Assembly (NCBI RefSeq): GCF_945897465.1
Contig: NZ_CAMDFK010000005.1
DNA from: Limnohabitans sp. Rim8
GTDB lineage: Bacteria > Pseudomonadota > Gammaproteobacteria > Burkholderiales > Burkholderiaceae_C
Direction: 5' to 3' (one strand)
Length of the DNA stretch: 64,000 bases
Numbering within the stretch: position 1 is the first letter of the stretch; every line of letters begins with the position of its first letter. The translations under genes were made by a program, and so were the position numbers. The notes beneath the pieces are model-generated. The model made no database searches, was not told the origin of the DNA, and worked only from the letters and a program-made list of their open reading frames with translations. Below, piece by piece: positions 11,286 through 29,511 of the stretch.

Positions 11286-11395
11286 TTAAATCACATGGCC
11301 TTGGACAACGACAGCACCATGCGGTTGTCATTGGAAAATGTGTAGGCCGCCTTTTTGGTTGCGCCCACAAAAGCGCTACCCAGGTCTTAGTCACT

Positions 11396-11412
11396 AAGCA
11401 GAGACCATGCCA
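11396..11412 (-). promoter_or_regulatory. candidate sigma-54 (-24/-12) promoter of glnK-amtB
   Basis: The minus strand reads TGGCATGGTCTCTGCTT, which fits TGGCAY-N5-YTGCW. It lies about 140 nt upstream of the glnK ATG. Confidence 0.5.
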
Positions 11413-11537
11413 AGCCATGGCTGAGGACTGAAATCAGAGCGTTAATGGGCCGCTTGCACTCTGAAGCCGAACCCATGCAATTGCAAACCAACGGGCACAG
11501 GGCCCGCTTTGGGCTTGGTTGTTCGGTGCGCTCAAAA

Positions 11538-11554
11538 CGCACCAAGTCGGTGCA
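11538..11554. promoter_or_regulatory. candidate NtrC enhancer site
   Basis: CGCACCAAGTCGGTGCA compares well with the NtrC consensus TGCACC-N5-GGTGCA. It lies about 135 bp upstream of the sigma-54 element. The overlapping palindrome GGTGCG-N7-CGCACC is at 11525-11543. Confidence 0.45.
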
Positions 11555-11716
11555 ACTTGACGATATTGGGCTCAGTTTGGTGCGCCAACCCATCAGGTCG
11601 GGCTTGGCCGTATGGACATTCACCTTCGCGGTGCACGCAGGTCCTTGGCGGCAGTTGCCCACAAAACCATAGCCCTCCTCTACACTGATGCCCATAAAAA
11701 TGAGGGAGGACGAGAC

Positions 11717-14534: not shown

Positions 14535-14671
14535 GCCAGGCAAACAGTCGGATTCCACGTTTCTTTATGCCCGATATGACATATACAACCAACTAAAAAA
14601 TCGTTCCCATGTCTGAAGGGCTTGGCCACAATCGCGCCATCCTCTGTTCATCACCTTCAGGAACGACCCTC

Positions 14672-15622
14672 ATGAAACACATCTCTGCCCTGGTTCTGGC
14701 CTTATCGGCCACCGCCTTCTCCGTGCCCGCTTTCGCCGCCCAGCCCTTGCTCAGCCCTGCCGAGCTGCAGGCCAAACTGTCCGACACCAACGTGCGGGTG
14801 ATCGACATCCGAGACCCCAAGTCCTATGCGGCCAACCACATCCCTGGCGCGGTGAGTGCGCCTTATGGCACCTGGCGCGGCCCGGCCAGCAACCCCGGCG
14901 AATTGCCTGCTCTGCCCAAATTGACCACCCTGGTGCAAAGCCTGGGCCTGACCCCCAGCACCCACGCGGTGATTGTGTCCAGCGGCGCAGACGCCACCGA
15001 CTTTGGGGCCTCGGCGCGCGTGTACTGGACGCTCAAGGTGCTGGGCCTCAAAGAGCTGTCGGTACTCAATGGCGGCTTGAAGGGCTGGACCACCGCCGGT
15101 TTGCCGCAAAACAACCAAGCCGTGAAAGTCGCGGCCAGCAGCTTCCAGCCGCAAATCGATCAAACTCTGGTCGCCACCAAGGAAGAGCTGGTGGCCCGCG
15201 TGAAAGCCGGTGACGCCGCCTTGATCGATGCAAGACCTGCCGACTTCTTCAAGGGCGACACCCGCCATGTGGCCGCGAGCGTGCCCGGCACCTTAGAAGG
15301 GGCGGTGAACGTGGAACACAGCAAATGGTTTGCCCCCGGCAGCGCCACCTTTGTGAGCCCCGAACAGGCCCAAAAAGTGGCGGCAGCCAGCTCGATCGAC
15401 CCGGCCAAAGAGACCGTTTCCTTTTGCAACACTGGCCACTGGGCAGCAACCAACTGGTTTGCCATGTCCGAAGTGCTGGGCCAGAAAAATGTGAAGCTCT
15501 ATGCGGGCTCGATGGTGGAGTGGTCCAAAGACGCCAGCGGCCTGCCCATGGCCAACGTGCCCAGCCGCCCCAAGCAACTCTTGATTGACGCCAAACTCTG
15601 GGCAGAAAAAACCTTCAAATAA
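14672..15622 (+). CDS. periplasmic tandem-rhodanese sulfurtransferase (thiosulfate sulfurtransferase-like)
   Basis: Signal peptide MKHISALVLALSATAFSVPAFA|AQ. Two rhodanese domains. The active-site loop FCNTGHWAA is in the second domain. Confidence 0.8.
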   Translation: MKHISALVLALSATAFSVPAFAAQPLLSPAELQAKLSDTNVRVIDIRDPKSYAANHIPGAVSAPYGTWRGPASNPGELPALPKLTTLVQSLGLTPSTHAVIVSSGADATDFGASARVYWTLKVLGLKELSVLNGGLKGWTTAGLPQNNQAVKVAASSFQPQIDQTLVATKEELVARVKAGDAALIDARPADFFKGDTRHVAASVPGTLEGAVNVEHSKWFAPGSATFVSPEQAQKVAAASSIDPAKETVSFCNTGHWAATNWFAMSEVLGQKNVKLYAGSMVEWSKDASGLPMANVPSRPKQLLIDAKLWAEKTFK

Positions 15623-16705
15623 ATGCAGGTCATGAAACGCCTTCCTTTGGCGGCCTTGCTGGCCGCCTTTTTCATCTTTTTAGCCCTGTCCGTGTCCATC
15701 CGCCAAGCCGTGCTGATGCTGGTGGGCGTGGGCATGGGTGCGGCTTTGGCCGCAGCCCGCTTTGGTTTCACCACCGGCTGGCGTCAACTCATTGAGCAGC
15801 GCAACCCGCAAGGCGTGAGCGGCCAGGTGCTGCTGCTGGCCTTGGCCAGCTTGGCGGCGCTGCCGCTCTTGGGCCAGTTTCCTGAACTGCACGCCGCCCT
15901 GGGGCCACCGAGTGTGAGCTTGCTGGTGGGCGCTTTTGTGTTCGGGCTGACCATGCAGATTGCCGACGGCTGCGGCTCGGGCAGTTTGTACAAGGCGGGG
16001 CTGGGCGTGCCGCTCAACATGGGCATTTTGCCGCTGTTCGCCTTGGGCAGTTTTTTGGGTTCGGTGCACCTGGACCGCTGGTTGTCACTGGGCCAAACGG
16101 ACCCGGTCAGCTTCTCCGCCAGCCTGGGCACGGGCGGCGCTTTGGCCTTGACGCTGGCCCTGCTGGCCGCTGTGCTGGTGGCCGTGCGCCTGTGGGTGGG
16201 CGCGGGCCAAAGCTGGTTCGACAAACGCTGGGTCTGGGGCGCGGTGGCCCTCGCCGTTTTGGCCACTTTGAACTTGTTGTTGGCCGGGCAGCCTTGGGGC
16301 GTGGTCTATGGCTTTGGCCTGTGGGCCGCCAAGATCTCGGTGGCGCTGGGTGCGTTTGACCCCACGGCCAATGCCTTTTGGGGCCAGGCAGGCAACGCGC
16401 AGCGCCTGACACAAACCGTGTTGATGGACGTGACCACCATCACCAACATCGGCATTCTGGGCGGGGCGCTGTGGGTTTCGGCCAAATCCCCGGCTGGCAG
16501 CAAGCCCCTGACCACGCAGCAATGGGTGATTGGCCTGGTGGCCGGCTTCGTCATGGGCTACAGCTCGCGCCTGGCCTTTGGCTGCAACATCGGCGCCATG
16601 CTCAGCGGCATTTCCACCGGCAGCTTGCACGGTTGGCTGTGGGTGCCTTTGGCCTTTGCGGGCACCTTGATTGGCGTGCGCGTGCGCCGCCACTACCAGT
16701 TCTGA
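15623..16705 (+). CDS. YeeE/YedE family sulfur-compound (thiosulfate) transporter
   Basis: The two conserved Cys-loop motifs DGCGSGSLYKAG and AFGCNIGAMLSG are present. It is polytopic, and its ATG immediately follows the rhodanese stop. Confidence 0.8.
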   Translation: MQVMKRLPLAALLAAFFIFLALSVSIRQAVLMLVGVGMGAALAAARFGFTTGWRQLIEQRNPQGVSGQVLLLALASLAALPLLGQFPELHAALGPPSVSLLVGAFVFGLTMQIADGCGSGSLYKAGLGVPLNMGILPLFALGSFLGSVHLDRWLSLGQTDPVSFSASLGTGGALALTLALLAAVLVAVRLWVGAGQSWFDKRWVWGAVALAVLATLNLLLAGQPWGVVYGFGLWAAKISVALGAFDPTANAFWGQAGNAQRLTQTVLMDVTTITNIGILGGALWVSAKSPAGSKPLTTQQWVIGLVAGFVMGYSSRLAFGCNIGAMLSGISTGSLHGWLWVPLAFAGTLIGVRVRRHYQF

Positions 16706-16917: not shown

Positions 16918-17751
16918 TCAGCGCGTCAACCAGCGACGCGCCGTAAAACTCAGCGCGTCCACACAAGCCACCATGAGCAGCATGGCCGCCAAAATGGTGG
17001 CGGTCTTGTTCATGTGGAACAGGCCCATGTGGAAGGACAGCAATTGGCCCAAGCCCCCCGCGCCCACCACGCCCAGCACCGCGGCGGCGCGGATGTTGTT
17101 TTCCCAGCGGTACAACGTGTAGCTCATGAGCTGCGGCAAGACCTGCGGCAAGGTGGCATAAAAGAACACGCGCAGCGGCCCCACACCTTGGGTCCGCAAA
17201 GCGTCGCCCGGCCCGGTGGGGATGTTCTCCATGGCCTCGGCGAACAAACGGCCCAACACGCCCGTGGTGTGCAGGGCCAAGGCCAGCGTGCCCGCCATGG
17301 GCCCCAGGCCCGCCGAAATCAAGAGCAAAGCGGCCCACACCAATTCAGGAATGGCGCGCAAGGCATTGAGCAGCCAGCGCGTGGGGCTGCGCAGCCAGGC
17401 CGGGTCTTGGGCGGACATGCGGCTGGCGGACACGGCCAACGCCAAGCCCAGCACCGCCGCGATGACAGTACCCAGCGCCGACATGGCCAGCGTCTCCCAA
17501 GCGGCCCAGGCCACCTTGTTCACAAACACAGGCGACAAATCCGGCGGGAAAAACTCGGCCACAAAGCGGCCCATGCTGCGCGCGGCGTCCATGGACGCAA
17601 AAGACACCCAGTCCAAGTCGAGCGAGACAAAACTGGCCACCACCAAGACCAGCAAAGCCAAAGTGAACCAACACGCTTTGCAGCGGGCATCAAAGATCGG
17701 CGGCGGCAATTTGTAGGGCGGGTTGGCCGCTTCACGCGAAAAAGACTTCAT
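16918..17751 (-). CDS. phnE: PhnE-family ABC transporter permease (second of two)
   Basis: PhnE-type permease motifs ALRAIPELVWAALL and GVVGAGGLGQLL. The ATG at 17751 overlaps the stop of the upstream permease (ATGA). Confidence 0.8.
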   Translation of the reverse strand: MKSFSREAANPPYKLPPPIFDARCKACWFTLALLVLVVASFVSLDLDWVSFASMDAARSMGRFVAEFFPPDLSPVFVNKVAWAAWETLAMSALGTVIAAVLGLALAVSASRMSAQDPAWLRSPTRWLLNALRAIPELVWAALLLISAGLGPMAGTLALALHTTGVLGRLFAEAMENIPTGPGDALRTQGVGPLRVFFYATLPQVLPQLMSYTLYRWENNIRAAAVLGVVGAGGLGQLLSFHMGLFHMNKTATILAAMLLMVACVDALSFTARRWLTR

Positions 17752-18608
17752 GCCAGCGCCTTTCGCAACCAAGCGCTCACCCGGTCGGCCAGCGCCACCA
17801 GCGTGATGAACACCAGCAGCATGGTGGCCACCTCGCCGCCGTTGAACATCTTCATCGAGTTGTCCAGTTGCTGGCCCAAGCCCCCCGCGCCGACAAAGCC
17901 CAGCACGACCGACGAGCGGATCGCGCATTCCCAGCGGTACACGGTGTAAGAGGCCAACTCTGCCGCGTGGCTGGGCAGCAAGGCGTACACAAAGGCTTGC
18001 AAGCGGCCGCTGCCGTTGCGCATCAGGGTTTGGGTGGCGTGGCTCTCACCACTTTCCAAAATTTCGGCGTAGACCTTGCCCAGCATGCCGCCGTAGGTCA
18101 GCGCAATGGCCAGCACGCCCGCCGTGGGTCCCAGACCCACCACGCGCACAAACACCAGCGCCCAAATCAGCTCCGGGATGCTGCGCAGCACAATCAGCGT
18201 AGCTCGCACCAGCCAGCGCAGCACCGCAGGCCAACGGTCCATGCGGCCCGACAAAGCCGACAGCGACAAGACCCGCGTGGCCATCAAGCTCAAGGGAATG
18301 GCCAGCACCAGCGCCAGCGTGACACCCGCGGTGGCCATGGCCACGGTGCGCCAGGTTTCACGCACCACCATGTCCATGAATTCGGCGCTGTAGATCAGCG
18401 GCCAAAAGGTGGACAAGAACTGCGCGGTCACTTGCCGGTTTTCAGGCTCCCACAACACCCACAAACGGAACTCGGTGGCCACACCCAATGGCCACAACAT
18501 CACCAAGGCCAAGCCCAACCAAAACACCCGCTTGAAAAAGGCCGGGTCGCGGGCCGGCGCATCCAGGCGAGGCCGGGGCGTTGGCATGTGTGAAACAGAA
18601 GCGGTCAT
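17748..18608 (-). CDS. phnE: PhnE-family ABC transporter permease (first of two)
   Basis: VLRSIPELIWALVF and GFVGAGGLGQQL are paralogous to the downstream permease. Confidence 0.8.
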   Translation of the reverse strand: MTASVSHMPTPRPRLDAPARDPAFFKRVFWLGLALVMLWPLGVATEFRLWVLWEPENRQVTAQFLSTFWPLIYSAEFMDMVVRETWRTVAMATAGVTLALVLAIPLSLMATRVLSLSALSGRMDRWPAVLRWLVRATLIVLRSIPELIWALVFVRVVGLGPTAGVLAIALTYGGMLGKVYAEILESGESHATQTLMRNGSGRLQAFVYALLPSHAAELASYTVYRWECAIRSSVVLGFVGAGGLGQQLDNSMKMFNGGEVATMLLVFITLVALADRVSAWLRKALA

Positions 18609-18636
18609 CTTGAGCGTGGCTCAGACAGCTAAAGCA

Positions 18637-19476
18637 TCAACGGCAGTGCATCACCACAGGCGCCGGCCCTACTGGCGCTGCGTCGTGCAATGCCACAGGC
18701 AACACCTCGCCACGCAACTCGTGTTCGAACTGGTCGTACAAATGCGCCAGGCGCTCAGGGCTGACCTGTTCAGAGGGCAAATCAAACACCAGCTGCCCAT
18801 CGCGCAGGCCAATGGTGCGCGGAAAGTGCGCCAGCGCCATGTCCACTTGGTGCAGCGTGGCCACGAGCGTGACCTGGCGCTCGGCGGCCAAGTTGACCAA
18901 GGCCGACATGGCCATGCGGGCCCGCATCGGGTCAAGCGCTGACAAGGGTTCGTCGATCAGCCAGAGGCTGGCCGGTGCCAGCAGGGCGCGGGCCAGGCCC
19001 ACACGTTGGCGCTCTCCGCCCGACAGGCGGTCCACTCGGTCGAACAATTTGTCGCCCAGGTCAAAGTGCACCAGCGCTTCGTAAGCGGCCGGGATGTCGG
19101 TGGGGTAGAACAGCGAGCGCAAGCTGGACCACAAACCCATGCTGGGCAAACGCCCGGCCAGCACCGAGGTCACCACACGTTGGCGCGGCGGCAGCGGCGG
19201 CACCTGCGGGGCCAGAAACAACTGCCCGCGTGTGCGGCGCAAGGCGCGTGCAGACAGTGTCCAAGGGTTCACGCCCGCCAATTGCAGCGTGCCTTGGGTG
19301 GGCGGCTGGGCACAGGCCAGTACCTGCAGCAAGGTCGTCTTGCCTGCGCCTGATGGGCCAATGATCGCTACCTGCTCGCCTGCGGTCAGGCGCAGGTTCA
19401 GCCCCCGCAAAGCTGCGGGCGCACTGGGCAAGGCTGCCGGATGCCTGGCCTCCAGGCCCAAAAGCTCGATGTTCAC
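18637..19476 (-). CDS. phnC: PhnC-family ABC transporter ATP-binding protein
   Basis: Walker A GPSGAGKTT, signature LSGGERQRV and Walker B LWLIDEPLSALD. GTG start at 19476. Confidence 0.85.
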   Translation of the reverse strand: MNIELLGLEARHPAALPSAPAALRGLNLRLTAGEQVAIIGPSGAGKTTLLQVLACAQPPTQGTLQLAGVNPWTLSARALRRTRGQLFLAPQVPPLPPRQRVVTSVLAGRLPSMGLWSSLRSLFYPTDIPAAYEALVHFDLGDKLFDRVDRLSGGERQRVGLARALLAPASLWLIDEPLSALDPMRARMAMSALVNLAAERQVTLVATLHQVDMALAHFPRTIGLRDGQLVFDLPSEQVSPERLAHLYDQFEHELRGEVLPVALHDAAPVGPAPVVMHCR

Positions 19477-19494
19477 CGCGCTGCCGCTCAGGCT

Positions 19495-20364
19495 TTAGAG
19501 CAAGCCCGCGCTGCGGGCGGCCGACTCCAGGCCCTTGTAGTTCTCGGGCGTGGTAGCGATGTAGCGGCTCGAGCGGTTGAGCTTCAAGATCTCGGCGTGC
19601 TCGGGGTTGGCGGGGTTCAGGGCCAGCAAGGCGGCTTTGATTTTTTCGCGCAAGTCGGCAGGCATGTCGGCGTGCACCGACCAGTTGTAGTTGAAGTAAG
19701 GGGGCGTGGTGTAGAACACGTTCACAGCCTGGGTGTCGACCTTGTTTTCGGCCACGAACTTTTTCCACACGGTGATGTCGAGCGCTGCGGCATCGACCTT
19801 GCCACTGACCACCGAAGCGATGGTGGCGTCGTGAGCGCCGCTGTAGGCGATGCGCTTGAAGTCTTTTTCAGGCTCGATCTTGGCTTGCAGCAAAAAGCTG
19901 CGCGGCATCAGATGGCCAGAGGTGCTGCTTTGTGAGCCAAAAGAGACTTGCTTGCCCTTCATGTCGGCCAGCGTCTTGATGCCAGAGTTGGTCTTGGCGA
20001 TGAACACCGACTGGAAACGCGTGTCTTCTTCGCGCTGGGCCAATGGCACGATCTTGCCGCCCGAGCGGATATTCGCCTGCACAAAGGTGAAGCCGCCAAA
20101 CCAGACCACATCGACCTTCTTGTTCACCAATGACTCCACAGCAGCGGGGTAATCGGTCACGGGCGTGAACAGCACTTTCATACCCAGTTGCTTTTCCAGG
20201 TAAGTGGCCAAAGGCGTGAACTTGCGCACCTGCTCGGTGGCCGCTTCCTCGGGGATGGTGGTCACGCGCAACGTGGTTTGGGCTTGGGCCGAGCTCATGG
20301 CCGACAAAGCCAGCAAACCTGCACAGACCGAGGACAAAAATTTGGAAATAAAAGCGTGATGCAT
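19495..20364 (-). CDS. PhnD-family periplasmic substrate-binding protein (subfamily annotated in databases as putative selenate/phosphonate binding)
   Basis: Signal peptide ending SSAQA|QTT. PhnD-like TLRVTTIPEE, and YPAAVESLVNKKVDVVWFGGFT. Confidence 0.85.
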   Translation of the reverse strand: MHHAFISKFLSSVCAGLLALSAMSSAQAQTTLRVTTIPEEAATEQVRKFTPLATYLEKQLGMKVLFTPVTDYPAAVESLVNKKVDVVWFGGFTFVQANIRSGGKIVPLAQREEDTRFQSVFIAKTNSGIKTLADMKGKQVSFGSQSSTSGHLMPRSFLLQAKIEPEKDFKRIAYSGAHDATIASVVSGKVDAAALDITVWKKFVAENKVDTQAVNVFYTTPPYFNYNWSVHADMPADLREKIKAALLALNPANPEHAEILKLNRSSRYIATTPENYKGLESAARSAGLL

Positions 20365-20477
20365 GGCTAACTATAAAAAACAATCAACCCTTATTACACC
20401 CTGAAATCTTTGCACCGCGCCATACAAGGGCCAAAGCTGCTCAAAGCTGCAGCCACTTTCATGACTTAATATGCCGC

Positions 20478-21446
20478 ATGACCACCCCCCAATTCATCCA
20501 GCTGTACCAGCACAACGCCGCCGCCGTGGCGCAAGAACTCTTGCAGGGCCTGAGCGCCCCGCAGGCCTTCACCTCACCCAAATACCTGTACGACGCGCTG
20601 GGCTCGCGCTTGTTCGAGGCCATCACCGAGCTGCCAGAGTACGACCTGACCCGCACCGAGGCGCAACTCATGCGCCTGCACAGTGCGGACATGGCCCAGC
20701 ACCTGCCCAAAGGTGCTTGCTGGATCGACCTGGGCGCGGGCAACTGCGAAAAAGCCGGACGGCTGCTGGGCCCCCTGCAAGCGGGGCGTTATGTGGCGGT
20801 GGACATTTCGGTGGACTTTGTGCGCGAAGCCCTGGACAGCCTGCAGCGCCAGCACCCGGACTTGCCCATGACGGGCCTGGGCACCGATTTCTCGGGGGGC
20901 CTGGATTTGCCAGACGCCTTGAAACTGGACCCGGCGCAGCCACGCGTCTTGTTTTACCCGGGCTCGAGCATCGGTAATTTCACACCCGATCAGGCGTTAG
21001 GCTTTTTGCAAAGCCTGCACCGCGCTTGTGGCACAGCCCAAGGCAGCGGCTTGCTGATCGGGGTGGATTTGGTCAAAGACGCGGCCGAACTGGAAGCGGC
21101 CTATGACGACGCCCTGGGCGTGACCGCTGCCTTTGACCTGAACCTGCTGCTGCACATCAACCGCTTGGTGGGCAGCAACTTTGTGGTGCGCGACTGGCGG
21201 CACTTGTCGCGCTTCAACGCCGAGCGCTCGCGCGTGGAAATGCACCTGCAGGCGCGCCACGCGGTGCGCGTGCAGTGGCCAGGCGGCGAGCGGCTTTTTG
21301 CCAAAGGCGAGACCATCCACACAGAAAACGCCTGTAAGTGGACGGTGCCGAACTTCGAAGCCTTGCTGCACGCAGCAGGCTTTGCCCAGACCCGCGCCTG
21401 GACCGATCCGGCCCAGCGCTTTGCGGTGTTCTGGGCCGTGGCCTGA
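20478..21446 (+). CDS. egtD: L-histidine N-alpha-methyltransferase (hercynine synthase)
   Basis: It aligns along its full length, from memory, with mycobacterial EgtD. Matching segments include PKYLYDALGSRLFEAITELPEYDLTRTEAQ, DLGAGNCEK, GSSIGNFTP, AYDDALGVTAAFDLNLL and TENACKW. Confidence 0.85.
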   Translation: MTTPQFIQLYQHNAAAVAQELLQGLSAPQAFTSPKYLYDALGSRLFEAITELPEYDLTRTEAQLMRLHSADMAQHLPKGACWIDLGAGNCEKAGRLLGPLQAGRYVAVDISVDFVREALDSLQRQHPDLPMTGLGTDFSGGLDLPDALKLDPAQPRVLFYPGSSIGNFTPDQALGFLQSLHRACGTAQGSGLLIGVDLVKDAAELEAAYDDALGVTAAFDLNLLLHINRLVGSNFVVRDWRHLSRFNAERSRVEMHLQARHAVRVQWPGGERLFAKGETIHTENACKWTVPNFEALLHAAGFAQTRAWTDPAQRFAVFWAVA

Positions 21447-21545
21447 GCTTGTCGCGCATTTGATTCGATCTCTTTAACCTCGTGTCCATAATGAATTTGG
21501 CCCAGCGCTCTTGCTGCGTGCAAATTCAATGACCTGGAGACTCGC

Positions 21546-22313
21546 ATGTTGAACGATCTGAAAGACAAAGTGGTTTTGATCACCGGCTCGAGCACCGGTA
21601 TCGGTGCTGCAGCGGCAGTGGCTTTTGGCCGACTTGGCGCACGCGTGGCCGTGCACTACAACAGCAGCCAAGGCCCGGGTGAAGAAGTGCTCAAAGCTGT
21701 CAAGGACACGGGTGCTCAGGCCGTCTTGCTGCAAGGCAACGTGCTTGAAACCGCCCAATGCCACCGCCTGGTCGAAGAAACTGTCAAGGCGTTCGGACGC
21801 ATAGACATCTTGATCAACAACGCGGGCGCTTTGGTTCAACGGGTACCCATTGAAGAGATCACCGATGAGCTGTTTGACAATGTGGTGCATCTGAACGTGC
21901 GCTCCGCCATGATGTGCACCGCCGCTGCAGTGGCCGCCATGCGTCGGCAGGGCCAAGGCGGCGTCATCATCAATGTGACCTCGGTCGCGGCCAGGCATGG
22001 GGGCGGTACAGGTGCTTCTCTGTATGCCGGCTCCAAAGGCTTTGTCTCCACCATGACCAAAGGCTTGGCCAAGGAACTTGTCAAAGACAAGATCCGGGTC
22101 AACGCGATTGCCCCCGGCGTGATCACCACCCCATTTCACGAGCGTTTTTCGACGCCCCAAATGTTGGAAGGCTTTAGGGCCACGATCCCCATGAACCGCT
22201 TGGGCACTGCCGACGAATGTGCAGGCGCATTCCTGTACCTGGCTTCTGAACAGATGTCGGGCTATGTGACCGGCCAGGTCATCGACATCAACGGTGGGCA
22301 GTACATGCCCTGA
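21546..22313 (+). CDS. SDR family oxidoreductase
   Basis: TGSSTGIG cofactor motif, NNAG, and the catalytic YAGSK (YxxxK). Confidence 0.85.
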   Translation: MLNDLKDKVVLITGSSTGIGAAAAVAFGRLGARVAVHYNSSQGPGEEVLKAVKDTGAQAVLLQGNVLETAQCHRLVEETVKAFGRIDILINNAGALVQRVPIEEITDELFDNVVHLNVRSAMMCTAAAVAAMRRQGQGGVIINVTSVAARHGGGTGASLYAGSKGFVSTMTKGLAKELVKDKIRVNAIAPGVITTPFHERFSTPQMLEGFRATIPMNRLGTADECAGAFLYLASEQMSGYVTGQVIDINGGQYMP

Positions 22314-22316
22314 GTG

Positions 22317-23165
22317 TCAGTGCATGGAGGGGTAAAGCACGGTCACGCGCCACAAGGTGCGTGGCCGGGTCAGATCGATCAGGGGTGCGCTGTGCAGCAG
22401 CAAAGCGTTGTCCCAGACAATCACATCACCGTTTTCGTAGTGGTTGGTGTGGCAGTATTTTTCTTGTGTGGCATGTGCGGCCAATTCGCGCAACAGGTCC
22501 AGTGCCTCGTCATCGGGCAGGCCTTCGATGCCAAATGAACTCCCGCTGACCGCATACAAAGCCAGCTGACCTGTGAAGGGGTGTGGCTTGACCAGCGGGT
22601 GACGAACCCAGTTGACCCTTTGGGCCTGCTCGGCATTGAGCACAGACGCCACGCTTCGGGATTGTTTGTCCAGATCATCGCGGTTGCCATAGTGGTGCTT
22701 GACCACGAGGTCTTTGATTTTGGCTTTCATGCCCGAGGGTAAGTCGGCATAGGCCTTGGCTTGGTTGGCAAAGGTGGTGCCGTTGGGTGCGGGCGGAACG
22801 TCTTGCGCATGCAAGATGGTGCATCGCGCCACGTTTTCGAGATAGGAATAGTCGGTATGAAAATACGTGCCCGCATCCACCAGCCCCGTGGGCTTGCCGT
22901 GCTTGAACACGTTAGAGAGGATCAGGATGTTCGCATCCTCCGAGTGATGGAAGGTGTCAATGACATGCGGCGAAGGACGCCCCCATTGCCGGGCAAAACT
23001 CACCATTTGGAATGCCGTGAGTGACTGGTTCTTGATCACCACAAAACCGTGACGATGCAAGGCGTCGGCCAAGCCTTGGCGTTGCTCGGCATCCATGGCT
23101 TGCGACAGGTCCAGGCCCTCGATGCAGGCGCCAAGAACATCGCTCAAAGGTTTGGCCAAGAGCAT
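22317..23165 (-). CDS. TauD/TfdA family Fe(II)/2-oxoglutarate dioxygenase
   Basis: HxD iron motif in GTYFHTDYSY. The C-terminal half DVIVWDN..LLH is typical of TauD-like enzymes. Confidence 0.8.
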   Translation of the reverse strand: MLLAKPLSDVLGACIEGLDLSQAMDAEQRQGLADALHRHGFVVIKNQSLTAFQMVSFARQWGRPSPHVIDTFHHSEDANILILSNVFKHGKPTGLVDAGTYFHTDYSYLENVARCTILHAQDVPPAPNGTTFANQAKAYADLPSGMKAKIKDLVVKHHYGNRDDLDKQSRSVASVLNAEQAQRVNWVRHPLVKPHPFTGQLALYAVSGSSFGIEGLPDDEALDLLRELAAHATQEKYCHTNHYENGDVIVWDNALLLHSAPLIDLTRPRTLWRVTVLYPSMH

Positions 23166-23180
23166 GGGAATTCGCTTTCC

Positions 23181-24500
23181 TCAGTTGATCATTTCAGGAG
23201 AAAAAATGCGAGGAAGAAAGAGGGCAATTTCGGGGAACACAATGACTGCAAAAAGCACCAGCAGCATGGGCACCACCATGATCATGGTGTCCTTGATCGC
23301 GAACCTCAGCGGCACCTTGGCCACCGCGCAAGAAATCATCAGGCACATGCCATAGGGCGGGGTGACCAGGCCAAAAGCCAAAGCCAGAATGCCCACAATG
23401 GCAAAGTGAACGGGGTGCATGCCCACCGATTGCGCCAAAGGTTGCAAGGTGGTGCCCACGATGATGATGGCCGGGATGGCATCCAGAAAGCAGCCCACAA
23501 TCAAGAAGGCCGCCGCGATGAACAAGCCCACACCAATCACACCCATGCCCCAGGTCTGCACATTCGACAACAAGGCCTTCGGGATTTGGTAATAAGCCAG
23601 CAACCAGCCGAACACCGAAGCGGTTCCAACACAAAACAAAGCAACCGCCGAGAGTTTTCCCGTGTCCAATACGGCGGCCATGAATTGTTTGAAGCCCATC
23701 TCGCGGTAAAAGAACAGAGACAAAACAGCTGCATACAAAACAGCCGCCGCCGCCGATTCGGTGGCTGTGAACCAACCCAGCAAAATACCGCCCACAATGA
23801 TCACAGGTGTCAACATCGCTGGGATGGCCACACCGGCTGACTTGACAATTTCAAGGATATTGGCCCGTGGATATACCGGATAGTTGCGCTTGACAGAATA
23901 AGCATGGACGGTGGCCATCTGTGCCAAGCACAACAGCACCCCCGGAACAATGCCTGCCAAATACATGGCGCCAATCGAAGTGGAAATCACCCCACCCCAA
24001 ACCACCATCAAAATGGACGGGGGGATGATCACGGCCAGGACCGACGACACAGCCGTGACAGCAATCGAAAAAGACAGGTCATAACCCTCCTTGACCTGGG
24101 CCTCAATGAACAGCTTGCCCTGCCCTGCAGCGTCGGCGCTCGCCGAACCGGAAATTCCGGCAAAAAATACCGACAACAAGACGTTGACCTGCGCCAGCCC
24201 TCCGGGAAAATGCCCGACCAAGGCTCGGGACAAACGCATCATCCTGGATGTGATGCCGCCACCATTCATCAAGTTGGCGGTCAACAAGAAAAATGGAACG
24301 GCCAGCAAAATGAAAGAGTTGTAGGTCTTGAAGGTCTCATTGAACAGGACCATCGGTGACAGCCTGGGCTCCAACAACAAAACCGGCAACGATGCCAGGC
24401 CCAGGGCAAAGGCAACCGGAACCCGTATGGCCAGAAGAAGGAAAAACCCCCCAAAGAGGATCAGTGCCGCCATTCCAGGCGAAAACATGACAGAGCTCAA
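23181..24500 (-). CDS. dctM: TRAP transporter large permease subunit
   Basis: 439-aa polytopic protein with DctM-type sequence throughout. It overlaps dctQ by 4 nt. Confidence 0.9.
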   Translation of the reverse strand: MSSVMFSPGMAALILFGGFFLLLAIRVPVAFALGLASLPVLLLEPRLSPMVLFNETFKTYNSFILLAVPFFLLTANLMNGGGITSRMMRLSRALVGHFPGGLAQVNVLLSVFFAGISGSASADAAGQGKLFIEAQVKEGYDLSFSIAVTAVSSVLAVIIPPSILMVVWGGVISTSIGAMYLAGIVPGVLLCLAQMATVHAYSVKRNYPVYPRANILEIVKSAGVAIPAMLTPVIIVGGILLGWFTATESAAAAVLYAAVLSLFFYREMGFKQFMAAVLDTGKLSAVALFCVGTASVFGWLLAYYQIPKALLSNVQTWGMGVIGVGLFIAAAFLIVGCFLDAIPAIIIVGTTLQPLAQSVGMHPVHFAIVGILALAFGLVTPPYGMCLMISCAVAKVPLRFAIKDTMIMVVPMLLVLFAVIVFPEIALFLPRIFSPEMIN

Positions 24501-24994
24501 ACCGCTGACTCCTGATTCATACTTTCATGATGGGCCGACGGGCTGAACATTTGGTTGAGCAAGAAAACCATCCAAAGAAAGCCCGAAATAGGCCAAGCGA
24601 TGAAAATCCACCACATGGGCATGTCAGCCAGCTCTGAGGTCTGGTTCCACCCAAACTGGGTGAATTCGATGCCCCAGTAAAAAATCACAGCCGAAAAAAT
24701 CAACATGAAAACTTGGCAGATGAACAACAGGCGTTTGTTGGTCTTGGCCGACAGTTGGGGCAGGAAATCGACGTCAAAATGCATTTTTTCACGCACGCCC
24801 AAGGTGGCACCCAACATGATGAGCCAGATGAAGAAAAAGCGACTCATTTCTTCAGTCCACATGTAGCGTGGAATGAAGTCGGTGTACCTGGAAAAAATCT
24901 GCAAACTCACAGGTACAAGCAAGAGCAAAACCGTGAAGATCAGAAGAAAAGACAGCAAAGCATCGATCAGGAACAACAACTTTTTCATGAGCAA
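24497..24994 (-). CDS. dctQ: TRAP transporter small permease subunit
   Basis: 165 aa with 4 hydrophobic helices. Positioned between dctP and dctM. Confidence 0.85.
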   Translation of the reverse strand: MLMKKLLFLIDALLSFLLIFTVLLLLVPVSLQIFSRYTDFIPRYMWTEEMSRFFFIWLIMLGATLGVREKMHFDVDFLPQLSAKTNKRLLFICQVFMLIFSAVIFYWGIEFTQFGWNQTSELADMPMWWIFIAWPISGFLWMVFLLNQMFSPSAHHESMNQESAV

Positions 24995-25049
24995 CTTTAG
25001 GGGTGAGCATGCAGGGCGATGGCCTTTCGGCCACCGCCCGATCGGCCAA

Positions 25050-26039
25050 TCACTTCAGTGCATTGATCTTGGCGTAGATCGCATCCGCACCCACCTCTTT
25101 GGCATATGCGGCCATGACGGGGTCCACCAGTTTTTGCATTTCGGCTCGCTGGGCAAAGGGCACCTGCTTGAGCTTGCCTTCTTTGGCGTATTTGTCGAGC
25201 TTGGCTTGGTCCTCCGACGACTCGATCTGACGACCAAACGCACCCGCCTCCTTGCCCGCCTTCACGATGGCTGCTTGCAAGTCAGCAGGCAGCTTCTTCA
25301 GGGTCTTGACCGAAAAGCACAAAGGGCGAATGGTGATGGCATGGCGTGTCATCAAAATGTTGGGGGCCACTTCATAAAACTTCATGGCTTCCACACCAGC
25401 GGCTTCGTTTTCGCCGGCTTGGATCACACCGTTTTGAATCGCGTTGTAAACCTCGTTGTAGGCAATGACCGTTGGGGTCATGCCCACCGCACCAAAGGTT
25501 CGGCTCCAGATGGGTGCGCCTTGCACACGCACCTTCAGGTTTTTCAGATCAGCCAAATTGCCAGCAGACTTGTTGGCAAAAATATTGCGTACACCGCCGC
25601 CGGCATAACCAATCAGTTTGACTTCGGCTTTTTGCTCTACCTCGTCTGCAATCGGCTTGAGTATGTCTTGATCCAACACCTTATTCCAGTGACTCAGATC
25701 CCGGAACAAAAAAGGTGCATCAATGAAGGGGGCTGCTTTGGAAAAGGTGGACATGTGGGCTGGCGACACAATCGCAAAGTCCACCGCTTTGCCCTGGTTC
25801 ATGTAGGCAAAGTAATCTTTTTCCAAACCCAGTTCGCTGTTTTTGTGCAAAACAAAGTTGACCGGTTTGCCATAGTATTTTTTGACGAGCTCTTCAAACT
25901 TGACCATGGTCTTGGTGAAGGCATGGTCGTCACCAAATTGTGATGCGCCATGGAGCGTGATGGCTGCCTGTTGGGCATGCGCGCTCAAAGCCATGACCGA
26001 AGAGAGGACTACGCCCAGCAAAGGTTTCAAAATTTTCAT
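25050..26039 (-). CDS. dctP: TRAP transporter substrate-binding protein
   Basis: The start MKILKPLLGVVLSSVMALSAHA|QQ is at 26039, with an AGGAGA RBS. DctP-family body. The track ORF start at 26312 is over-extended. Confidence 0.85.
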   Translation of the reverse strand: MKILKPLLGVVLSSVMALSAHAQQAAITLHGASQFGDDHAFTKTMVKFEELVKKYYGKPVNFVLHKNSELGLEKDYFAYMNQGKAVDFAIVSPAHMSTFSKAAPFIDAPFLFRDLSHWNKVLDQDILKPIADEVEQKAEVKLIGYAGGGVRNIFANKSAGNLADLKNLKVRVQGAPIWSRTFGAVGMTPTVIAYNEVYNAIQNGVIQAGENEAAGVEAMKFYEVAPNILMTRHAITIRPLCFSVKTLKKLPADLQAAIVKAGKEAGAFGRQIESSEDQAKLDKYAKEGKLKQVPFAQRAEMQKLVDPVMAAYAKEVGADAIYAKINALK

Positions 26040-26301
26040 GTTTATGTCTCCTGAATTGATCGGAACAACAACCTGCTCACATTGTTGTTTTTTTAATGTA
26101 GGCCAAAGCCCCCCCGACAGTCTTGGGGAAAACCATGAGTCACCTCCACATCTGTCTCCAACGTGTCCGCGTGCACTGGCAAGTGACTTGGCCTCAGTGA
26201 TAACTTGACCAAGAAGCCGAGCGCAAGCGAAGCCGCTCATGTCTGCGCCTTTGGGATGAACTGGACGCAGTACTTTTTCATTCATCACACGAAAGAAGTT
26301 C

Positions 26302-27198
26302 ATGAAACACATTGGTTTTATAGGTGCCTCGGGCTTGATGGGTCATGGCATCGCCAAAAATTTGCTGGCCAAAGGCTTTCAGGTGTCGTTGACCGCCCAT
26401 TCGAGACGCGAACCTCTGCAAGACCTTCTGATGCATGGCGCCAAGCTGGTGGAACGCCACGCCGACCTGTCTGTCTGTGATGCGGTCATCATTTGTGTCA
26501 CCGGCTCTCCCCAGGTCGAGGCTGCGCTCGAGGGGCCAAGCGGCCTGTTGAGTCAAGCCCGTCCGGGGCTCGTGGTGGTGGATGCGTCCACCAGCGAACC
26601 CGATTCCACCCGCCGCCTGGCAGCCCGCTGCCAAGCGGTGGGCATGACCCTGGTTGATGCCCCATTGGCACGCACGCCGGTCGAAGCCGAGGCGGGCAAG
26701 CTCAACACCATGGTGGGCGCATCGCCCGAGGTCTTCACACGCTTGGAGCCCGTACTCCAGGCATATTGCGAAAACATCTTTCATGTCGGCGAAACGGGCG
26801 CTGCACACGTCATCAAGTTGTTGAACAACTTCCTGGGTCAAGCCATCACCACGGCCGCTGCTGAAGCTTTTGCCGTCGGCGCCAAAGCCGGCATTGATGT
26901 GGCCCAATTGGTCAGGGTGGTGTCGGCCGGTGCCGTCAATTCAGGCCTGTTCCAGGCCATGGCCAAAACCTTAGAGGGCGACTACACCGGACTCAAGTTC
27001 GAGCTGAACAATGCCTCCAAAGACTTGCGCTACTACGTGCATCTGACCGAAAACGTGAAAGCACCTTCATGGGTTGGCACCAGCGTGCACCAGAGTCTGG
27101 TGACAGCCTGCGCTTTGGGTTACGGCCAGGAGATGGTGCCCTCGCTGGTCAAGGCGCAAGCACAAATCAACCAGGTCAACATCGAGCAGGGCCGCTGA
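26302..27198 (+). CDS. NAD(P)-dependent beta-hydroxyacid dehydrogenase (3-hydroxyisobutyrate dehydrogenase family)
   Basis: N-terminal IGFIGASGLMGHGIAKNL Rossmann motif and the family core DAPLARTP..A..G.L. Confidence 0.85.
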   Translation: MKHIGFIGASGLMGHGIAKNLLAKGFQVSLTAHSRREPLQDLLMHGAKLVERHADLSVCDAVIICVTGSPQVEAALEGPSGLLSQARPGLVVVDASTSEPDSTRRLAARCQAVGMTLVDAPLARTPVEAEAGKLNTMVGASPEVFTRLEPVLQAYCENIFHVGETGAAHVIKLLNNFLGQAITTAAAEAFAVGAKAGIDVAQLVRVVSAGAVNSGLFQAMAKTLEGDYTGLKFELNNASKDLRYYVHLTENVKAPSWVGTSVHQSLVTACALGYGQEMVPSLVKAQAQINQVNIEQGR

Positions 27199-28211
27199 TG
27201 GCGCCCCGCCTGGGTATGGCCCTGGTGGGCTTGGGTGCGGCCACCCCACCGCATCTGCGCAGCCTGCAAGACCTGAGCGAACGCATCGACCTGCGTTATG
27301 CGGTCACGCGCCACCCCCACCCTGATCGCATCCGTCCTTACACAGGCCCAGTTCGCTGGGTCAGTGATCTGGACGAGGCGCTGAACGACCCACAGGTCCA
27401 AGCGGTCATTGTGGCCACACCACCGTCCACCCACCTGGACATCTGTCGGCGTTGCTTCGCTACCGGTAAACATGTCTTGCTCGAAAAACCGCTGGAACTG
27501 GACCTGGAAAGGTCAAAGCAACTGGCATCTCTGGCCCGGCAAAGCGGTCGGCACTGGGGTGTGGTCATGCAGCACCGGTTTCGTGAAGCATCGCTGGTTT
27601 TGCAGGATGTGGTCGACAAAGGGCGCTTGGGTGAAATCCAGGCCGCATCGGTGCGCGTGCCATGGTGGCGATCGCAAGCCTATTACAAAGAACTGGGCAG
27701 AGGCACCTTGGCACGTGATGGTGGCGGGGTGTTACTGACCCAAGCCATCCACACCCTGAACCTGTTTCAGTCGCTGGTCGGGGTGAAGTCGGTCACGGCC
27801 TCGGTGGTGCGGCAAACCCGTTTGCACCAAATGGAAACCGAGGACCATGTCAGCGCGCTGCTGGTTTTGGGCAATGGTGCGCCCGGTGACCTCATGGCGA
27901 CGACCGCCATGTACCCCGGCTTCCCAGAAACGATTGAAATCATCGGCACACAGGGCAGCGCACGGCTGAGTGGAGCAGATCTGCAGGTGCACTTTTTGCA
28001 AGGGGATCCTTTGACCGTGCGCGGTGAAGGCGGTACAGGCAGCGGTGCCAATATGATGGATTTTTCACACGAACCCCACCGGGATTTGTTAACAGATTTC
28101 ATCGACGCAATCGTCCACCATCGCGCTCCCAGAGTCACCGTTGATGATGCGCTGACAACCCACCTGCTGATCGATGAACTGCTGCGCAAGGGACGGATGT
28201 CGACGGACTGA
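27198..28211 (+). CDS. Gfo/Idh/MocA family oxidoreductase
   Basis: MALVGLGAATPPH Rossmann start and the EKPL motif (HVLLEKPLE). The ATG shares one nt with the upstream TGA (TGATG). Confidence 0.8.
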   Translation: MAPRLGMALVGLGAATPPHLRSLQDLSERIDLRYAVTRHPHPDRIRPYTGPVRWVSDLDEALNDPQVQAVIVATPPSTHLDICRRCFATGKHVLLEKPLELDLERSKQLASLARQSGRHWGVVMQHRFREASLVLQDVVDKGRLGEIQAASVRVPWWRSQAYYKELGRGTLARDGGGVLLTQAIHTLNLFQSLVGVKSVTASVVRQTRLHQMETEDHVSALLVLGNGAPGDLMATTAMYPGFPETIEIIGTQGSARLSGADLQVHFLQGDPLTVRGEGGTGSGANMMDFSHEPHRDLLTDFIDAIVHHRAPRVTVDDALTTHLLIDELLRKGRMSTD

Positions 28212-28214
28212 ACA

Positions 28215-29498
28215 TCAAACCTTCACAGACCGGAAGCCTGCAAAAATATCGCGCCGCTCGGGCACAAAAAAATTGCGGTAACGCACATCCACCACATGGG
28301 CCGAGGTGGCAGCGCAGGCCCCGCGCAGCACACGGTGGCCATGCCACCAAGGCGCTGAATAGTCGCGGTACGGGTGCACCTCAAAGCCCGGGTAAGGTGC
28401 AAAATCACTGGCCGTCCACTCCCACACCTGACCCCACAAAAAACCTGGCTGCTGCGCGGCGCATTCCCATTCGGCTTCGGTGGGCAGACGCCGCCCTGCC
28501 CATTGGCACCAAGCCTGGGCATCGTGGGCATTCAGGTGCACCGCCGGGGCCTGCAGGTCGAGCAGCTGCCACTGGCCAAATTGCTGTGCTTGCCAAACGC
28601 CGTCAAGCCAGCGCACGTGGGGCGGCAGCGCATGGCCGGTGGCTTGCACAAAAGGCAAGTAACGCGCCCAGCTCACGGCTGCAGCATCGATCTCGAACGC
28701 ACCCAAGGCCTGCGGATGGGCCTGACGCTCGTTGTCAAAGGCAAACCCTGGCCCTGAGTAGCCCAGAGTGTTAACCTGTGCAGGAACATGGACGGACCCT
28801 GTCAGCCCCAAAGGCGCTTGTAACCCACGCGCATCACCTGATGCGGGTTCACGCCAGCACAAGGCCGGTGGCAAGGCCAGCCCCAGCGCTTGGGCCATGT
28901 AGACCGAGGCTTCGTTGTGCATGTCTTCGTGTTGCAAGACCAGTCGCCAAAAATAAATCGCCTCGTCTGAGGGCGGCCGCCCGCCTGCGTGCAGAGCCTC
29001 AAGGGCTTGTAAGTGGCCCAAGCTGCGCTGCAGCACCTGCGCCAAATAGGCCTGCGTCCCGGCCAGATCGGGCAAAGGCAAGGCCCAGCGGCTGTCATGC
29101 GCCACCTCGCTGGAGTTGTAGAGCGCATCGGCATCGGGCAGCCAAGAGTCGTCAAAAGCTTCGCCGGTGCTGGCACTGCGTGTGCCCCAATGGCGCTGCC
29201 GATTGCGCACCGTCCACCACTCCTGAAACCAGGCGATATGCCCCCATTCCCACAACGGGGGGTTCATGCCCGGCGAGGGCGGCACCGACAGATCGGGCAT
29301 GGCATTTTGCCAAGCCTGCATCAGGCCCAGCGTGCGGGCGCGGGTGCGTTGCAGGGCCTGGGCCAAAACCGCAGGGCCGGCAGTGCGCACAGCGCTGTGC
29401 ACGGGCCCCTGACAGCCCACAAAATAACGGTCAAATAAACGCCCCCCTGTTGCGCCTTGGAAAACCTGCCTTGACCCCACCGTGGTACTGCCATTCAT
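28215..29498 (-). CDS. senA: EgtB-like DinB/FGE-sulfatase-fold enzyme, selenoneine synthase-like
   Basis: The N-terminal DinB-like domain carries the three-His iron site pattern (WEWGHIAWF and LQHEDMHNE). The C-terminal FGE-sulfatase/EgtB-type domain shows GQVWEWTASDF.PYPGF and RVLRGACAATS. The start is uncertain: ATG at 29498 (MNGSTTV), with alternatives at 29513 or downstream GTGs. The senA label comes from context: selD, the glycosyltransferase and egtD. Confidence 0.7.
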   Translation of the reverse strand: MNGSTTVGSRQVFQGATGGRLFDRYFVGCQGPVHSAVRTAGPAVLAQALQRTRARTLGLMQAWQNAMPDLSVPPSPGMNPPLWEWGHIAWFQEWWTVRNRQRHWGTRSASTGEAFDDSWLPDADALYNSSEVAHDSRWALPLPDLAGTQAYLAQVLQRSLGHLQALEALHAGGRPPSDEAIYFWRLVLQHEDMHNEASVYMAQALGLALPPALCWREPASGDARGLQAPLGLTGSVHVPAQVNTLGYSGPGFAFDNERQAHPQALGAFEIDAAAVSWARYLPFVQATGHALPPHVRWLDGVWQAQQFGQWQLLDLQAPAVHLNAHDAQAWCQWAGRRLPTEAEWECAAQQPGFLWGQVWEWTASDFAPYPGFEVHPYRDYSAPWWHGHRVLRGACAATSAHVVDVRYRNFFVPERRDIFAGFRSVKV

Positions 29499-29511
29499 GT
29501 ATAAACCGCCC

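What the first reader, a model, noticed from the sequence alone, without database searches (positions are those of the whole stretch)
20478..21446. Orphan hercynine synthase (egtD) with no egtA/B/C/E partner
The protein matches EgtD along its whole length, but no canonical ergothioneine partner gene is adjacent. The only EgtB-like enzyme in the window is the one head-to-head with the selD operon, 7 kb away. This implies the trimethyl-histidine made here is consumed by that enzyme. It links the two loci into one pathway that makes a hercynine-derived chalcogen compound.
Basis: partly seen in the sequence, partly recalled or inferred. Interest (0 to 1): 0.65.

Follow-up and report, generated by a model that had tools for sequence, protein, structure and literature searches.

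The report
egtD of a split selenoneine cluster
This is a genuine hercynine synthase gene (egtD) that belongs to an already described selenoneine (selenium-ergothioneine) gene cluster in a freshwater Limnohabitans bacterium. It looks orphaned only because an unrelated 6.8-kb transporter and oxidoreductase cassette sits between it and its partner senA.

Summary
The ORF at 20478-21446 (+) is a full-length EgtD (TIGR03438 342.7 bits, cutoff 290.9; M. smegmatis EgtD 4pim E=3.6e-52). Its histidine- and SAM-binding residues are conserved. The "EgtB-like" enzyme 6.8 kb downstream is SenA (NF041186 448 bits, cutoff 420; V. paradoxus SenA 8k5i E=1.6e-108; Phe397 signature present). It lies head-to-head with senB and senC, and senC is an oxidoreductase-SelD fusion. 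A putative selenate ABC transporter lies divergently upstream of egtD.

In about 50 related Burkholderiales genomes the order is transporter | egtD> <senA | senB> senC>, with the egtD and senA stop codons usually 14-120 bp apart. Only a subset of Limnohabitans, including this window, carries a 7-gene cassette (SDR, TauD-like, TRAP DctPQM, two dehydrogenases) exactly between those stops. The TRAP-TauD core of that cassette is widespread without sen genes.

The product is selenoneine. Kayrouz et al. (2022) already reported sen clusters with co-localised egtD and a selenate transporter. No egtA/B/C/E or eanB is in the window. The rest of the genome could not be searched. Novelty and interest are low.

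The parts
20478..21446 (+). egtD, L-histidine N-alpha-trimethyltransferase (hercynine synthase), 322 aa
   Evidence: TIGR03438 342.7 bits (cutoff 290.9), PF10017 319 bits. 4pim E=3.6e-52. Y39, F47, Y56, G161, N166, Y206, T213, M252 and E282 (M. smegmatis numbering) are conserved; S284 is Ala.
19495..20364 (-). Periplasmic substrate-binding protein of a putative selenate ABC transporter, divergent from egtD across a 113-bp intergenic region
   Evidence: TIGR04553 ABC_peri_selen 355.2 bits (cutoff 250). Signal-peptide-like N-terminus. Adjacent to egtD in most related loci.
16918..19476 (-). ABC transporter ATPase (18637-19476) and two PhnE-type permeases (17748-18608, 16918-17751), in one operon with the binding protein
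   Evidence: TIGR02315 PhnC-like 186 bits; TIGR01097 PhnE 262.6 and 200.1 bits. Gene starts. Synteny conserved.
21447..28214 (.). 6.77-kb inserted cassette separating egtD from senA. Genes: SDR 21546-22313(+), TauD-family dioxygenase 22317-23165(-), TRAP DctM 23181-24488(-), DctQ 24497-24988(-), DctP 25050-26039(-), HIBADH-like dehydrogenase 26302-27198(+), GFO/IDH/MocA oxidoreductase 27198-28211(+). Not part of the pathway.
   Evidence: Families. Absent from most relatives, where the egtD and senA stops are 14-120 bp apart. The TRAP+TauD module occurs widely without sen genes. GC is 0.49-0.60 against 0.61-0.67 in the flanks. No flanking repeats.
28215..29498 (-). senA, selenoneine synthase (non-haem iron, EgtB-like), 427 aa
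   Evidence: NF041186 448 bits (cutoff 420); the EgtB model scores 212, below its 360 cutoff. 8k5i/8ryz E about 1e-108. H71/H167/H171, Y363, N395 and F397 are conserved (with PMC11237966).
29512..30486 (+). senB, selenosugar synthase (Se-glycosyltransferase), 324 aa; its start codon is 13 bp from the senA start
   Evidence: TIGR04348 442.8 bits (cutoff 300). Start codon.
30486..32852 (+). senC, selenophosphate synthetase fused to an N-terminal pyridine-nucleotide-disulfide oxidoreductase domain, 788 aa
   Evidence: TIGR03169 498.5 bits (residues 12-386) and TIGR00476 SelD 298.9 bits (residues 446-753). GGCGAK Cys/Lys loop present. Full-length orthologues in Variovorax and other loci.
14672..16705 (+). 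Possible accessory genes, linked by proximity only: periplasmic tandem rhodanese (14672-15622) and a YedE/YeeE-type Sulf_transp membrane protein (15623-16705)
   Evidence: PF00581 100 bits; PF04143 134.8 bits. Rhodanese is closest to RhdA 1e0c and is not EanB. Present upstream of the transporter in many but not all Limnohabitans loci.

Best explanation
The gene encodes a functional EgtD that trimethylates L-histidine with SAM to give hercynine. It is the precursor-supply gene of a self-contained selenoneine locus in a Limnohabitans (Comamonadaceae) genome.

Proposed flow:
1. A putative selenate ABC transporter, divergent from egtD, imports selenium.
2. SenC (oxidoreductase-SelD fusion) makes selenophosphate.
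3. SenB makes a selenosugar, SeGlcNAc in the characterised system.
4. SenA couples the selenosugar oxidatively to C2 of hercynine. The adduct then collapses to selenoneine.

egtD and senA are ancestrally convergent neighbours. In this lineage a 6.8-kb, 7-gene TRAP-transporter and oxidoreductase cassette of independent origin is inserted between their stop codons, which makes egtD look orphaned.

Shown here: gene identities, signature residues, conserved synteny and the insertion. Inferred from published V. paradoxus biochemistry: the reaction steps. Inferred only: selenate specificity of the transporter, co-regulation, and dedication of EgtD to selenoneine alone.
For: - EgtD identity: above the curated equivalog cutoff and full length. 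Substrate and SAM residues are invariant in 84 of 84 relatives, except position 284.
- SenA, SenB and SenC all score above their curated cutoffs. SenA has the Fe triad, Tyr363, Asn395 and Phe397, which replaces Asp416 of EgtB (PMC11237966).
- Synteny: of the 80 loci encoding the closest EgtD relatives, nearly all with enough flank show SBP(-) egtD(+) senA(-) senB(+) senC(+). senA usually starts 14-120 bp after the egtD stop, sometimes 700-1400 bp. In 13 Limnohabitans loci senA follows after the 6.77-6.87-kb cassette; a 14th (L011) carries the cassette but its contig ends before senA.
- EgtDs outside this clade sit beside true EgtB (TIGR03440 above 540 bits).
- The cassette's TRAP+TauD core is common in metagenome contigs that have no sen genes within 10 kb.
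Against: - No experiment or expression data exists for this organism.
- Ser284 of M. smegmatis EgtD is Ala here, although 46 of 84 relatives share Ala.
- The rest of the genome could not be searched, so EgtD may also, or mainly, feed an EgtB or EanB encoded elsewhere. Several other Comamonadaceae carry a true egtB on the far side of the same transporter (L048, L050, L051, L054, L072).
- Selenate specificity of the transporter is only a hypothetical-equivalog annotation.
- No shared operator motif linking the egtD and senAB promoters was found.
Confidence: 0.85

Rival explanations
1. EgtD mainly or also supplies a sulfur pathway. An egtB (with or without egtC/E) or eanB elsewhere in the chromosome would use the hercynine for ergothioneine, and the link to sen would be shared rather than dedicated.
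For: V. paradoxus makes both ergothioneine and selenoneine. Five related Comamonadaceae/Burkholderiales loci carry a true EgtB (TIGR03440 524-539 bits for the three scored, L048, L051 and L072) next to the same transporter-egtD-sen cluster, so one egtD serving two consumers occurs in this family.
Against: No EgtB, EgtC, EgtE or EanB was found in the 64-kb window, and no EgtB-like gene lies within 10 kb either side of egtD in about 40 Limnohabitans-clade loci. The local rhodanese is a generic tandem rhodanese lacking EanB's N-terminal domain. This rival is compatible with the main explanation rather than exclusive of it.
Confidence: 0.3
2. The 7 genes between egtD and senA are a functional part of the pathway, for example uptake or processing of a betaine or of the sugar by-product of SenA, rather than an unrelated insertion.
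For: The cassette occupies exactly the same position in all 14 Limnohabitans loci that carry it and has been retained during divergence (80-95% protein identity). TauD-family enzymes include betaine hydroxylases (my knowledge), and GFO/SDR enzymes could act on sugars.
Against: It is absent from most sen clusters, including those of close relatives with 94% identical EgtD. The TRAP+TauD core occurs widely without sen or egtD. DctP is 341 bits to the TRAP binding protein 4nx1/4ovp, which I recall as uronate-binding, though I could not verify that. GC content differs from the flanks.
Confidence: 0.05
3. The protein is an EgtD-like methyltransferase with another substrate (Trp or Tyr betaine, EasF-like) and is unrelated to the sen genes.
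For: Methyltransf_33 includes non-histidine enzymes. The EasF model gives 171.8 bits. Position 284 is Ala rather than Ser.
Against: The EgtD equivalog score is above cutoff while the EasF score is below its 205.55 cutoff. Glu282 and Met252 are invariant; by my recollection of the EgtD structural work these are the residues whose change shifts specificity toward Trp. Adjacency to senA is conserved in about 50 genomes.
Confidence: 0.03

Closest known systems
Variovorax paradoxus senABC plus EgtD selenoneine pathway (Kayrouz et al. 2022; bioRxiv 10.1101/2022.04.13.486033)
   Same: Same four enzymes: EgtD, SenA, SenB and SenC. SenA matches 8k5i at E=1.6e-108 with identical active-site signature. 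SenC has the same oxidoreductase-SelD fusion architecture as in a Variovorax MAG (L074, 68% identity over 786 aa). [quoted passage not shown]
   Different: A 6.8-kb unrelated cassette separates egtD from senA. The host is a freshwater Limnohabitans. No egtB is seen nearby. Nothing has been tested biochemically.
Mycobacterial egtABCDE ergothioneine cluster
   Same: EgtD is a full-length homologue of M. smegmatis EgtD (4pim, E=3.6e-52) and makes the same predicted product, hercynine. SenA is a distant EgtB homologue with a DinB_2 plus FGE-sulfatase fold.
   Different: No egtA, egtB, egtC or egtE is present in the window. The hercynine consumer has Phe in place of Asp416 and scores below the EgtB cutoff. 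The chalcogen donor is a selenosugar rather than gamma-Glu-Cys.
Comamonadaceae/Burkholderiales clusters with egtB-[ABC transporter]-egtD-senA-senBC (loci L048, L050, L051, L054, L072)
   Same: Same transporter, egtD, senA, senB and senC order and orientation.
   Different: Those loci carry a true EgtB (TIGR03440 524-539 bits for the three scored) beyond the transporter. In the window that position holds a YedE-like protein and a rhodanese.
Anaerobic EanA/EanB ergothioneine pathway
   Same: An EgtD-type methyltransferase works without egtB/C/E, and a rhodanese-domain protein lies nearby.
   Different: The local rhodanese (316 aa, with a signal peptide) is closest to generic thiosulfate sulfurtransferases (1e0c, 104 bits). 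It matches EanB (6ktv) only at 47 bits, over the rhodanese domains, and lacks EanB's roughly 160-aa N-terminal domain.

Membership tests
EgtD (TIGR03438, L-histidine N-alpha-methyltransferase) | Full-length match above the curated equivalog cutoff | tested here: met
   342.7 bits against 290.9; residues 18-319 on profile positions 3-300 of 301. PF10017 319 bits.
EgtD (TIGR03438, L-histidine N-alpha-methyltransferase) | Histidine- and SAM-binding residues of M. smegmatis EgtD (Y39, F47, Y56, G86/G88, D113, D141, G161, N166, Y206, T213, M252, E282, S284; residue roles from my knowledge of the EgtD structures) | tested here: met
   All conserved except S284, which is Ala. Ala occurs in 46 of 84 sen-linked relatives and Ser in 38.
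EgtD (TIGR03438, L-histidine N-alpha-methyltransferase) | Converts His plus 3 SAM to hercynine | not testable with these tools
   Requires an enzyme assay.
SenA selenoneine synthase (NF041186) | Score above the SenA cutoff and below the EgtB cutoff | tested here: met
   SenA 448 bits (cutoff 420); EgtB TIGR03440 212.3 bits (cutoff 360). True EgtBs in related loci show the reverse pattern.
SenA selenoneine synthase (NF041186) | Three-His iron triad, catalytic Tyr, hercynine-binding Asn, and Phe/Tyr replacing EgtB Asp416 | tested here: met
   H71, H167, H171, Y363, N395 and F397 (8RYZ numbering) are all identical in the alignment. Residue list from PMC11237966.
sen gene cluster (senA-senB-senC) | Adjacent SenB (TIGR04348) and a SelD homologue next to SenA | tested here: met
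   SenB 442.8 bits (cutoff 300). SenC SelD domain 298.9 bits (cutoff 125) with a Cys/Lys loop. senA and senB are head-to-head, and senB-senC overlap by 1 bp.
sen gene cluster (senA-senB-senC) | Produces selenoneine | not testable with these tools
   Needs LC-MS of cultures supplied with selenium, or in vitro reconstitution.
Canonical egtABCDE ergothioneine cluster | EgtB sulfoxide synthase, EgtC amidohydrolase, EgtE C-S lyase and EgtA adjacent to egtD | tested here: not met
   No such family hit in any ORF scanned across the 64 kb. tblastn with a true EgtB hits only senA. The genome outside the window was not searched.
EanAB anaerobic pathway | EanB-type rhodanese with the N-terminal domain | tested here: not met
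   The local rhodanese gives 47 bits to EanB 6ktv, over chain residues 162-452 only. The best hit is RhdA 1e0c at 104 bits.

The most novel reading that the evidence does not exclude
Limnohabitans, one of the most abundant and heavily grazed freshwater bacterioplankton genera, may have lost egtB altogether and kept egtD solely for selenoneine. These bacteria would then be selenoneine-only producers carrying a self-sufficient uptake-to-product island, and a plausible base-of-food-web source of selenoneine in freshwater animals. The island's gene junctions (egtD/senA and senA/senB) would also act as recurrent landing sites for unrelated cassettes.
Probability: 0.3. Interest if true: 0.45.

Novelty: already known. 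Interest (0 to 1): 0.2.

Why it matters
The finding adds no new pathway. The selenoneine route (EgtD, SenC, SenB, SenA) and the co-localisation of egtD and a selenate transporter with some sen clusters were published in 2022.

Its modest value is as annotation. It shows that an apparently orphan egtD can be assigned to selenoneine synthesis by comparative synteny even when an insertion separates it from senA. It also marks Limnohabitans, an ecologically dominant freshwater genus, as a likely selenoneine producer whose 21-kb egtD neighbourhoods carry no egtB.

Tried and rejected
- Rfam scan of the whole window at gathering thresholds: no riboswitch or other RNA family.
- Promoter and terminator consensus scan of 19.4-30.6 kb: counts no higher than in shuffled sequence.
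- Phylogenetic footprinting of the SBP-egtD intergenic region across 48 loci. It showed only short conserved blocks, ATTA(C/A)A near the SBP side and a -10-like hexamer next to the egtD ATG. No operator shared with the senA-senB region could be identified.
- Repeats flanking the cassette: only chance-level short matches. No target-site duplication, IS or tRNA was found.
- Rhodanese tested as a candidate EanB: rejected.
- Literature check of the ligand of 4nx1/4ovp: nothing in the held library, so the uronate assignment rests on my memory only.
- Searching the rest of the genome for egtB, egtC, egtE or eanB was not possible. The single genome-contig scan went on EgtD synteny, and the other tools give no organism-resolved search.
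- A large protein-database search with a true EgtB was considered and not run. Without organism labels a negative result would have been uninformative.
- Literature search for Limnohabitans together with selenoneine or ergothioneine: no paper.

Full report
OBSERVATION. Window 20478-21446 (+) is an ATG-initiated ORF of 322 aa. It scores 342.7 bits on the NCBIfam equivalog TIGR03438 (EgtD; cutoff 290.9; E=1.7e-102), covering residues 18-319 on profile positions 3-300 of 301. It scores 319 bits on Pfam PF10017. Its best solved relative is M. smegmatis EgtD (4pim, E=3.6e-52, residues 14-321). I aligned it with 84 relatives and numbered the residues on the M. smegmatis enzyme; residue roles come from my knowledge of the EgtD structures. 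Tyr39, Phe47, Tyr56, Gly86/Gly88, Asp113, Asp141, Gly161, Asn166, Tyr206, Thr213, Met252 and Glu282 are all conserved. Only Ser284 differs. It is Ala here, and Ala occurs in 46 of 84 relatives against Ser in 38.

WHAT SURROUNDS IT. I scanned essentially all ORFs with coding-like composition against NCBIfam or Pfam.
- Divergently upstream, across a 113-bp gap, lies an ABC transporter operon. Its binding protein scores 355 bits on TIGR04553, 'putative selenate ABC transporter substrate-binding protein' (cutoff 250). A PhnC-like ATPase and two PhnE-like permeases follow (16918-20364, minus strand).
- Beyond that are a YedE/YeeE-type Sulf_transp protein, a signal-peptide-bearing tandem rhodanese and an ArsK-like MFS transporter.
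- Downstream of egtD are seven genes: an SDR, a TauD-family dioxygenase, a TRAP transporter DctMQP, a HIBADH-like dehydrogenase and a GFO/IDH/MocA oxidoreductase.
- Then come senA (28215-29498, minus strand), senB (29512-30486, plus strand) and senC (30486-32852, plus strand).

The sen genes are well supported. The senA product scores 448 bits on NF041186 SenA (cutoff 420) but only 212 bits on the EgtB model (cutoff 360). It matches V. paradoxus SenA (8k5i/8ryz) at about 1e-108. Using the residue list of the SenA structure paper (PMC11237966), the iron triad His71/His167/His171, catalytic Tyr363, Asn395 and Phe397 are all identical in the alignment. Phe397 is the SenA-specific replacement of EgtB Asp416. 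SenB scores 442.8 bits on TIGR04348 (cutoff 300). SenC is a fusion of a pyridine-nucleotide-disulfide oxidoreductase domain (TIGR03169, 498.5 bits) with SelD (TIGR00476, 298.9 bits) and has a GGCGAK Cys/Lys loop.

No ORF in the 64 kb matches EgtA, EgtB, EgtC, EgtE or EanB. A true EgtB from a related locus hits only senA. The rhodanese is a generic tandem rhodanese (1e0c, 104 bits). It is not EanB: the 6ktv match is 47 bits, covers the rhodanese domains only, and the N-terminal domain is missing.

ORGANISM AND COMPARATIVE SYNTENY. The identical EgtD occurs on metagenome-assembled contigs with the same gene order. The closest genomes are Limnohabitans spp. (Comamonadaceae), with EgtD up to 94-96% identical. 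I ran tblastn with 22 window proteins against the 80 loci that encode the nearest EgtD relatives.

The common arrangement is phnE-phnE-phnC-SBP(-) | egtD(+) senA(-) | senB(+) senC(+). senA starts 14-120 bp after the egtD stop in most Limnohabitans, Polaromonas, Hydrogenophaga, Ramlibacter, Rhodoferax and Rubrivivax loci, and 0.7-1.4 kb after it in a few (one search shows the junction sequences).

Fourteen Limnohabitans loci carry the window's 7-gene cassette immediately after egtD. In the 13 whose contigs extend far enough, senA follows 6.77-6.87 kb after the egtD stop. They are scattered over the EgtD tree. That pattern implies either spread by homologous recombination or one old insertion with repeated precise losses.

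EgtDs branching outside this clade (Janthinobacterium, Massilia, Pusillimonas, a Rubrivivax MAG) sit beside true EgtB (TIGR03440 541-560 bits). Five Comamonadaceae/Burkholderiales sen loci also carry a true egtB on the far side of the transporter. No Limnohabitans-clade locus has one within 10 kb on either side.

THE 7-KB GAP. The cassette fills exactly the space between the two convergent stop codons. It has lower GC than its flanks (0.49-0.60 against 0.61-0.67) and no flanking repeats. Its DctP scores 341 bits against TRAP binding protein 4nx1/4ovp. I recall those structures as uronate complexes, but I could not confirm this. Its TauD-like enzyme is equidistant from ScoE and TauD (about 118 bits). 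A metagenome scan seeded with the TauD-like protein found the DctPQM-TauD core on many long contigs with no egtD or sen gene within 10 kb. Only the two closest hits were sen-linked. The cassette is therefore an independent uptake and catabolic module, not part of the pathway.

MECHANISM. The most likely function follows the published V. paradoxus pathway.
1. EgtD makes hercynine.
2. SenC makes selenophosphate.
3. SenB makes a selenosugar.
4. SenA forms the C-Se bond on hercynine, yielding selenoneine.
5. The adjacent transporter probably supplies selenium.

Gene identity, signature residues and conserved linkage are shown here. The chemistry is inferred from the characterised orthologues. Transporter specificity, co-regulation and exclusivity for selenium are inference only.

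COMPARISON WITH WHAT IS KNOWN, AND NOVELTY. The locally new points are minor: the cassette insertion that hides the linkage, the apparent absence of egtB from Limnohabitans loci, and the plasticity of the cluster junctions.

LIMITS. The complete genome NZ_CP171843.1 would settle it.

VERDICT. This is an already known kind of system, and interest is low (0.2).

Noticed in passing
window 21447-28214: A 7-gene cassette (SDR, TauD-family dioxygenase, TRAP DctMQP, HIBADH-like and GFO/IDH/MocA dehydrogenases) is inserted exactly between the convergent egtD and senA stop codons. It has lower GC and no flanking repeats, and its distribution among Limnohabitans is polyphyletic. Its substrate is unknown; DctP is very close to PDB 4nx1/4ovp.
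   Followed up: partly
L013 12556-18271 (also L016, L044; a smaller gap in L019): In other Limnohabitans-clade loci a tripartite RND efflux system (AcrB-family pump, CusB/HlyD-type adaptor, outer-membrane factor) is inserted between the divergent senA and senB genes. A second junction of the cluster has therefore also taken up a cassette.
   Followed up: partly
window 20462-20480 and the equivalent position in Limnohabitans-clade loci: A -10-like hexamer (TAATAT, TAACAT or TAGCAT) lies 5-6 nt upstream of the egtD ATG in nearly all Limnohabitans-clade loci, and no Shine-Dalgarno sequence is present. This suggests a leaderless egtD mRNA.
   Followed up: partly
window 29496-29514: The senA and senB start codons are head-to-head and only 13 bp apart. 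Their promoters must therefore lie inside each other's coding sequence or overlap. Other genera have intergenic regions of about 20-160 bp here.
   Followed up: no
window 13272-16705: An ArsK-like MFS transporter, a periplasmic tandem rhodanese and a YedE/YeeE-type membrane protein lie immediately beyond the putative selenate transporter, and the same is seen in many Limnohabitans loci. They could take part in selenium or sulfur uptake or reduction, but they are linked by proximity only.
   Followed up: partly
window 32750-35957: A double Cupin_7 (ChrR-like) protein and a type II HAD hydrolase follow senC and are conserved there in Limnohabitans loci. A SulP-family anion permease follows on the opposite strand; it was detected in only one related locus (L012). 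Their roles are unknown.
   Followed up: no
L048, L050, L051, L054, L072 (about 4-8 kb upstream of egtD): Other Comamonadaceae/Burkholderiales sen clusters carry a true egtB beyond the ABC transporter (TIGR03440 524-539 bits for the three scored). They therefore have one egtD and two chalcogen-inserting enzymes in a single locus.
   Followed up: partly
L086 (Massilia MAG) 6252-12163: A selenate-type ABC transporter (SBP 61% identical to the window's) lies next to an egtD-egtB pair, with no sen genes within 10 kb. This raises doubt about whether the transporter family is specific for selenium.
   Followed up: no
L016 (CALQKH020000023.1): This contig is labelled as an Akkermansia muciniphila MAG but carries a Limnohabitans-type locus (EgtD 90% identical, same synteny). 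It is probably a mis-binned or contaminant contig.
   Followed up: no
window 2923-9164 and 49740-51425: Sulfur metabolism genes lie in the same window: cysN, cysD, cysH, a sulfite/nitrite reductase-like protein and a TauE/SafE exporter, plus SoxA- and SoxY-family genes further downstream.
   Followed up: no
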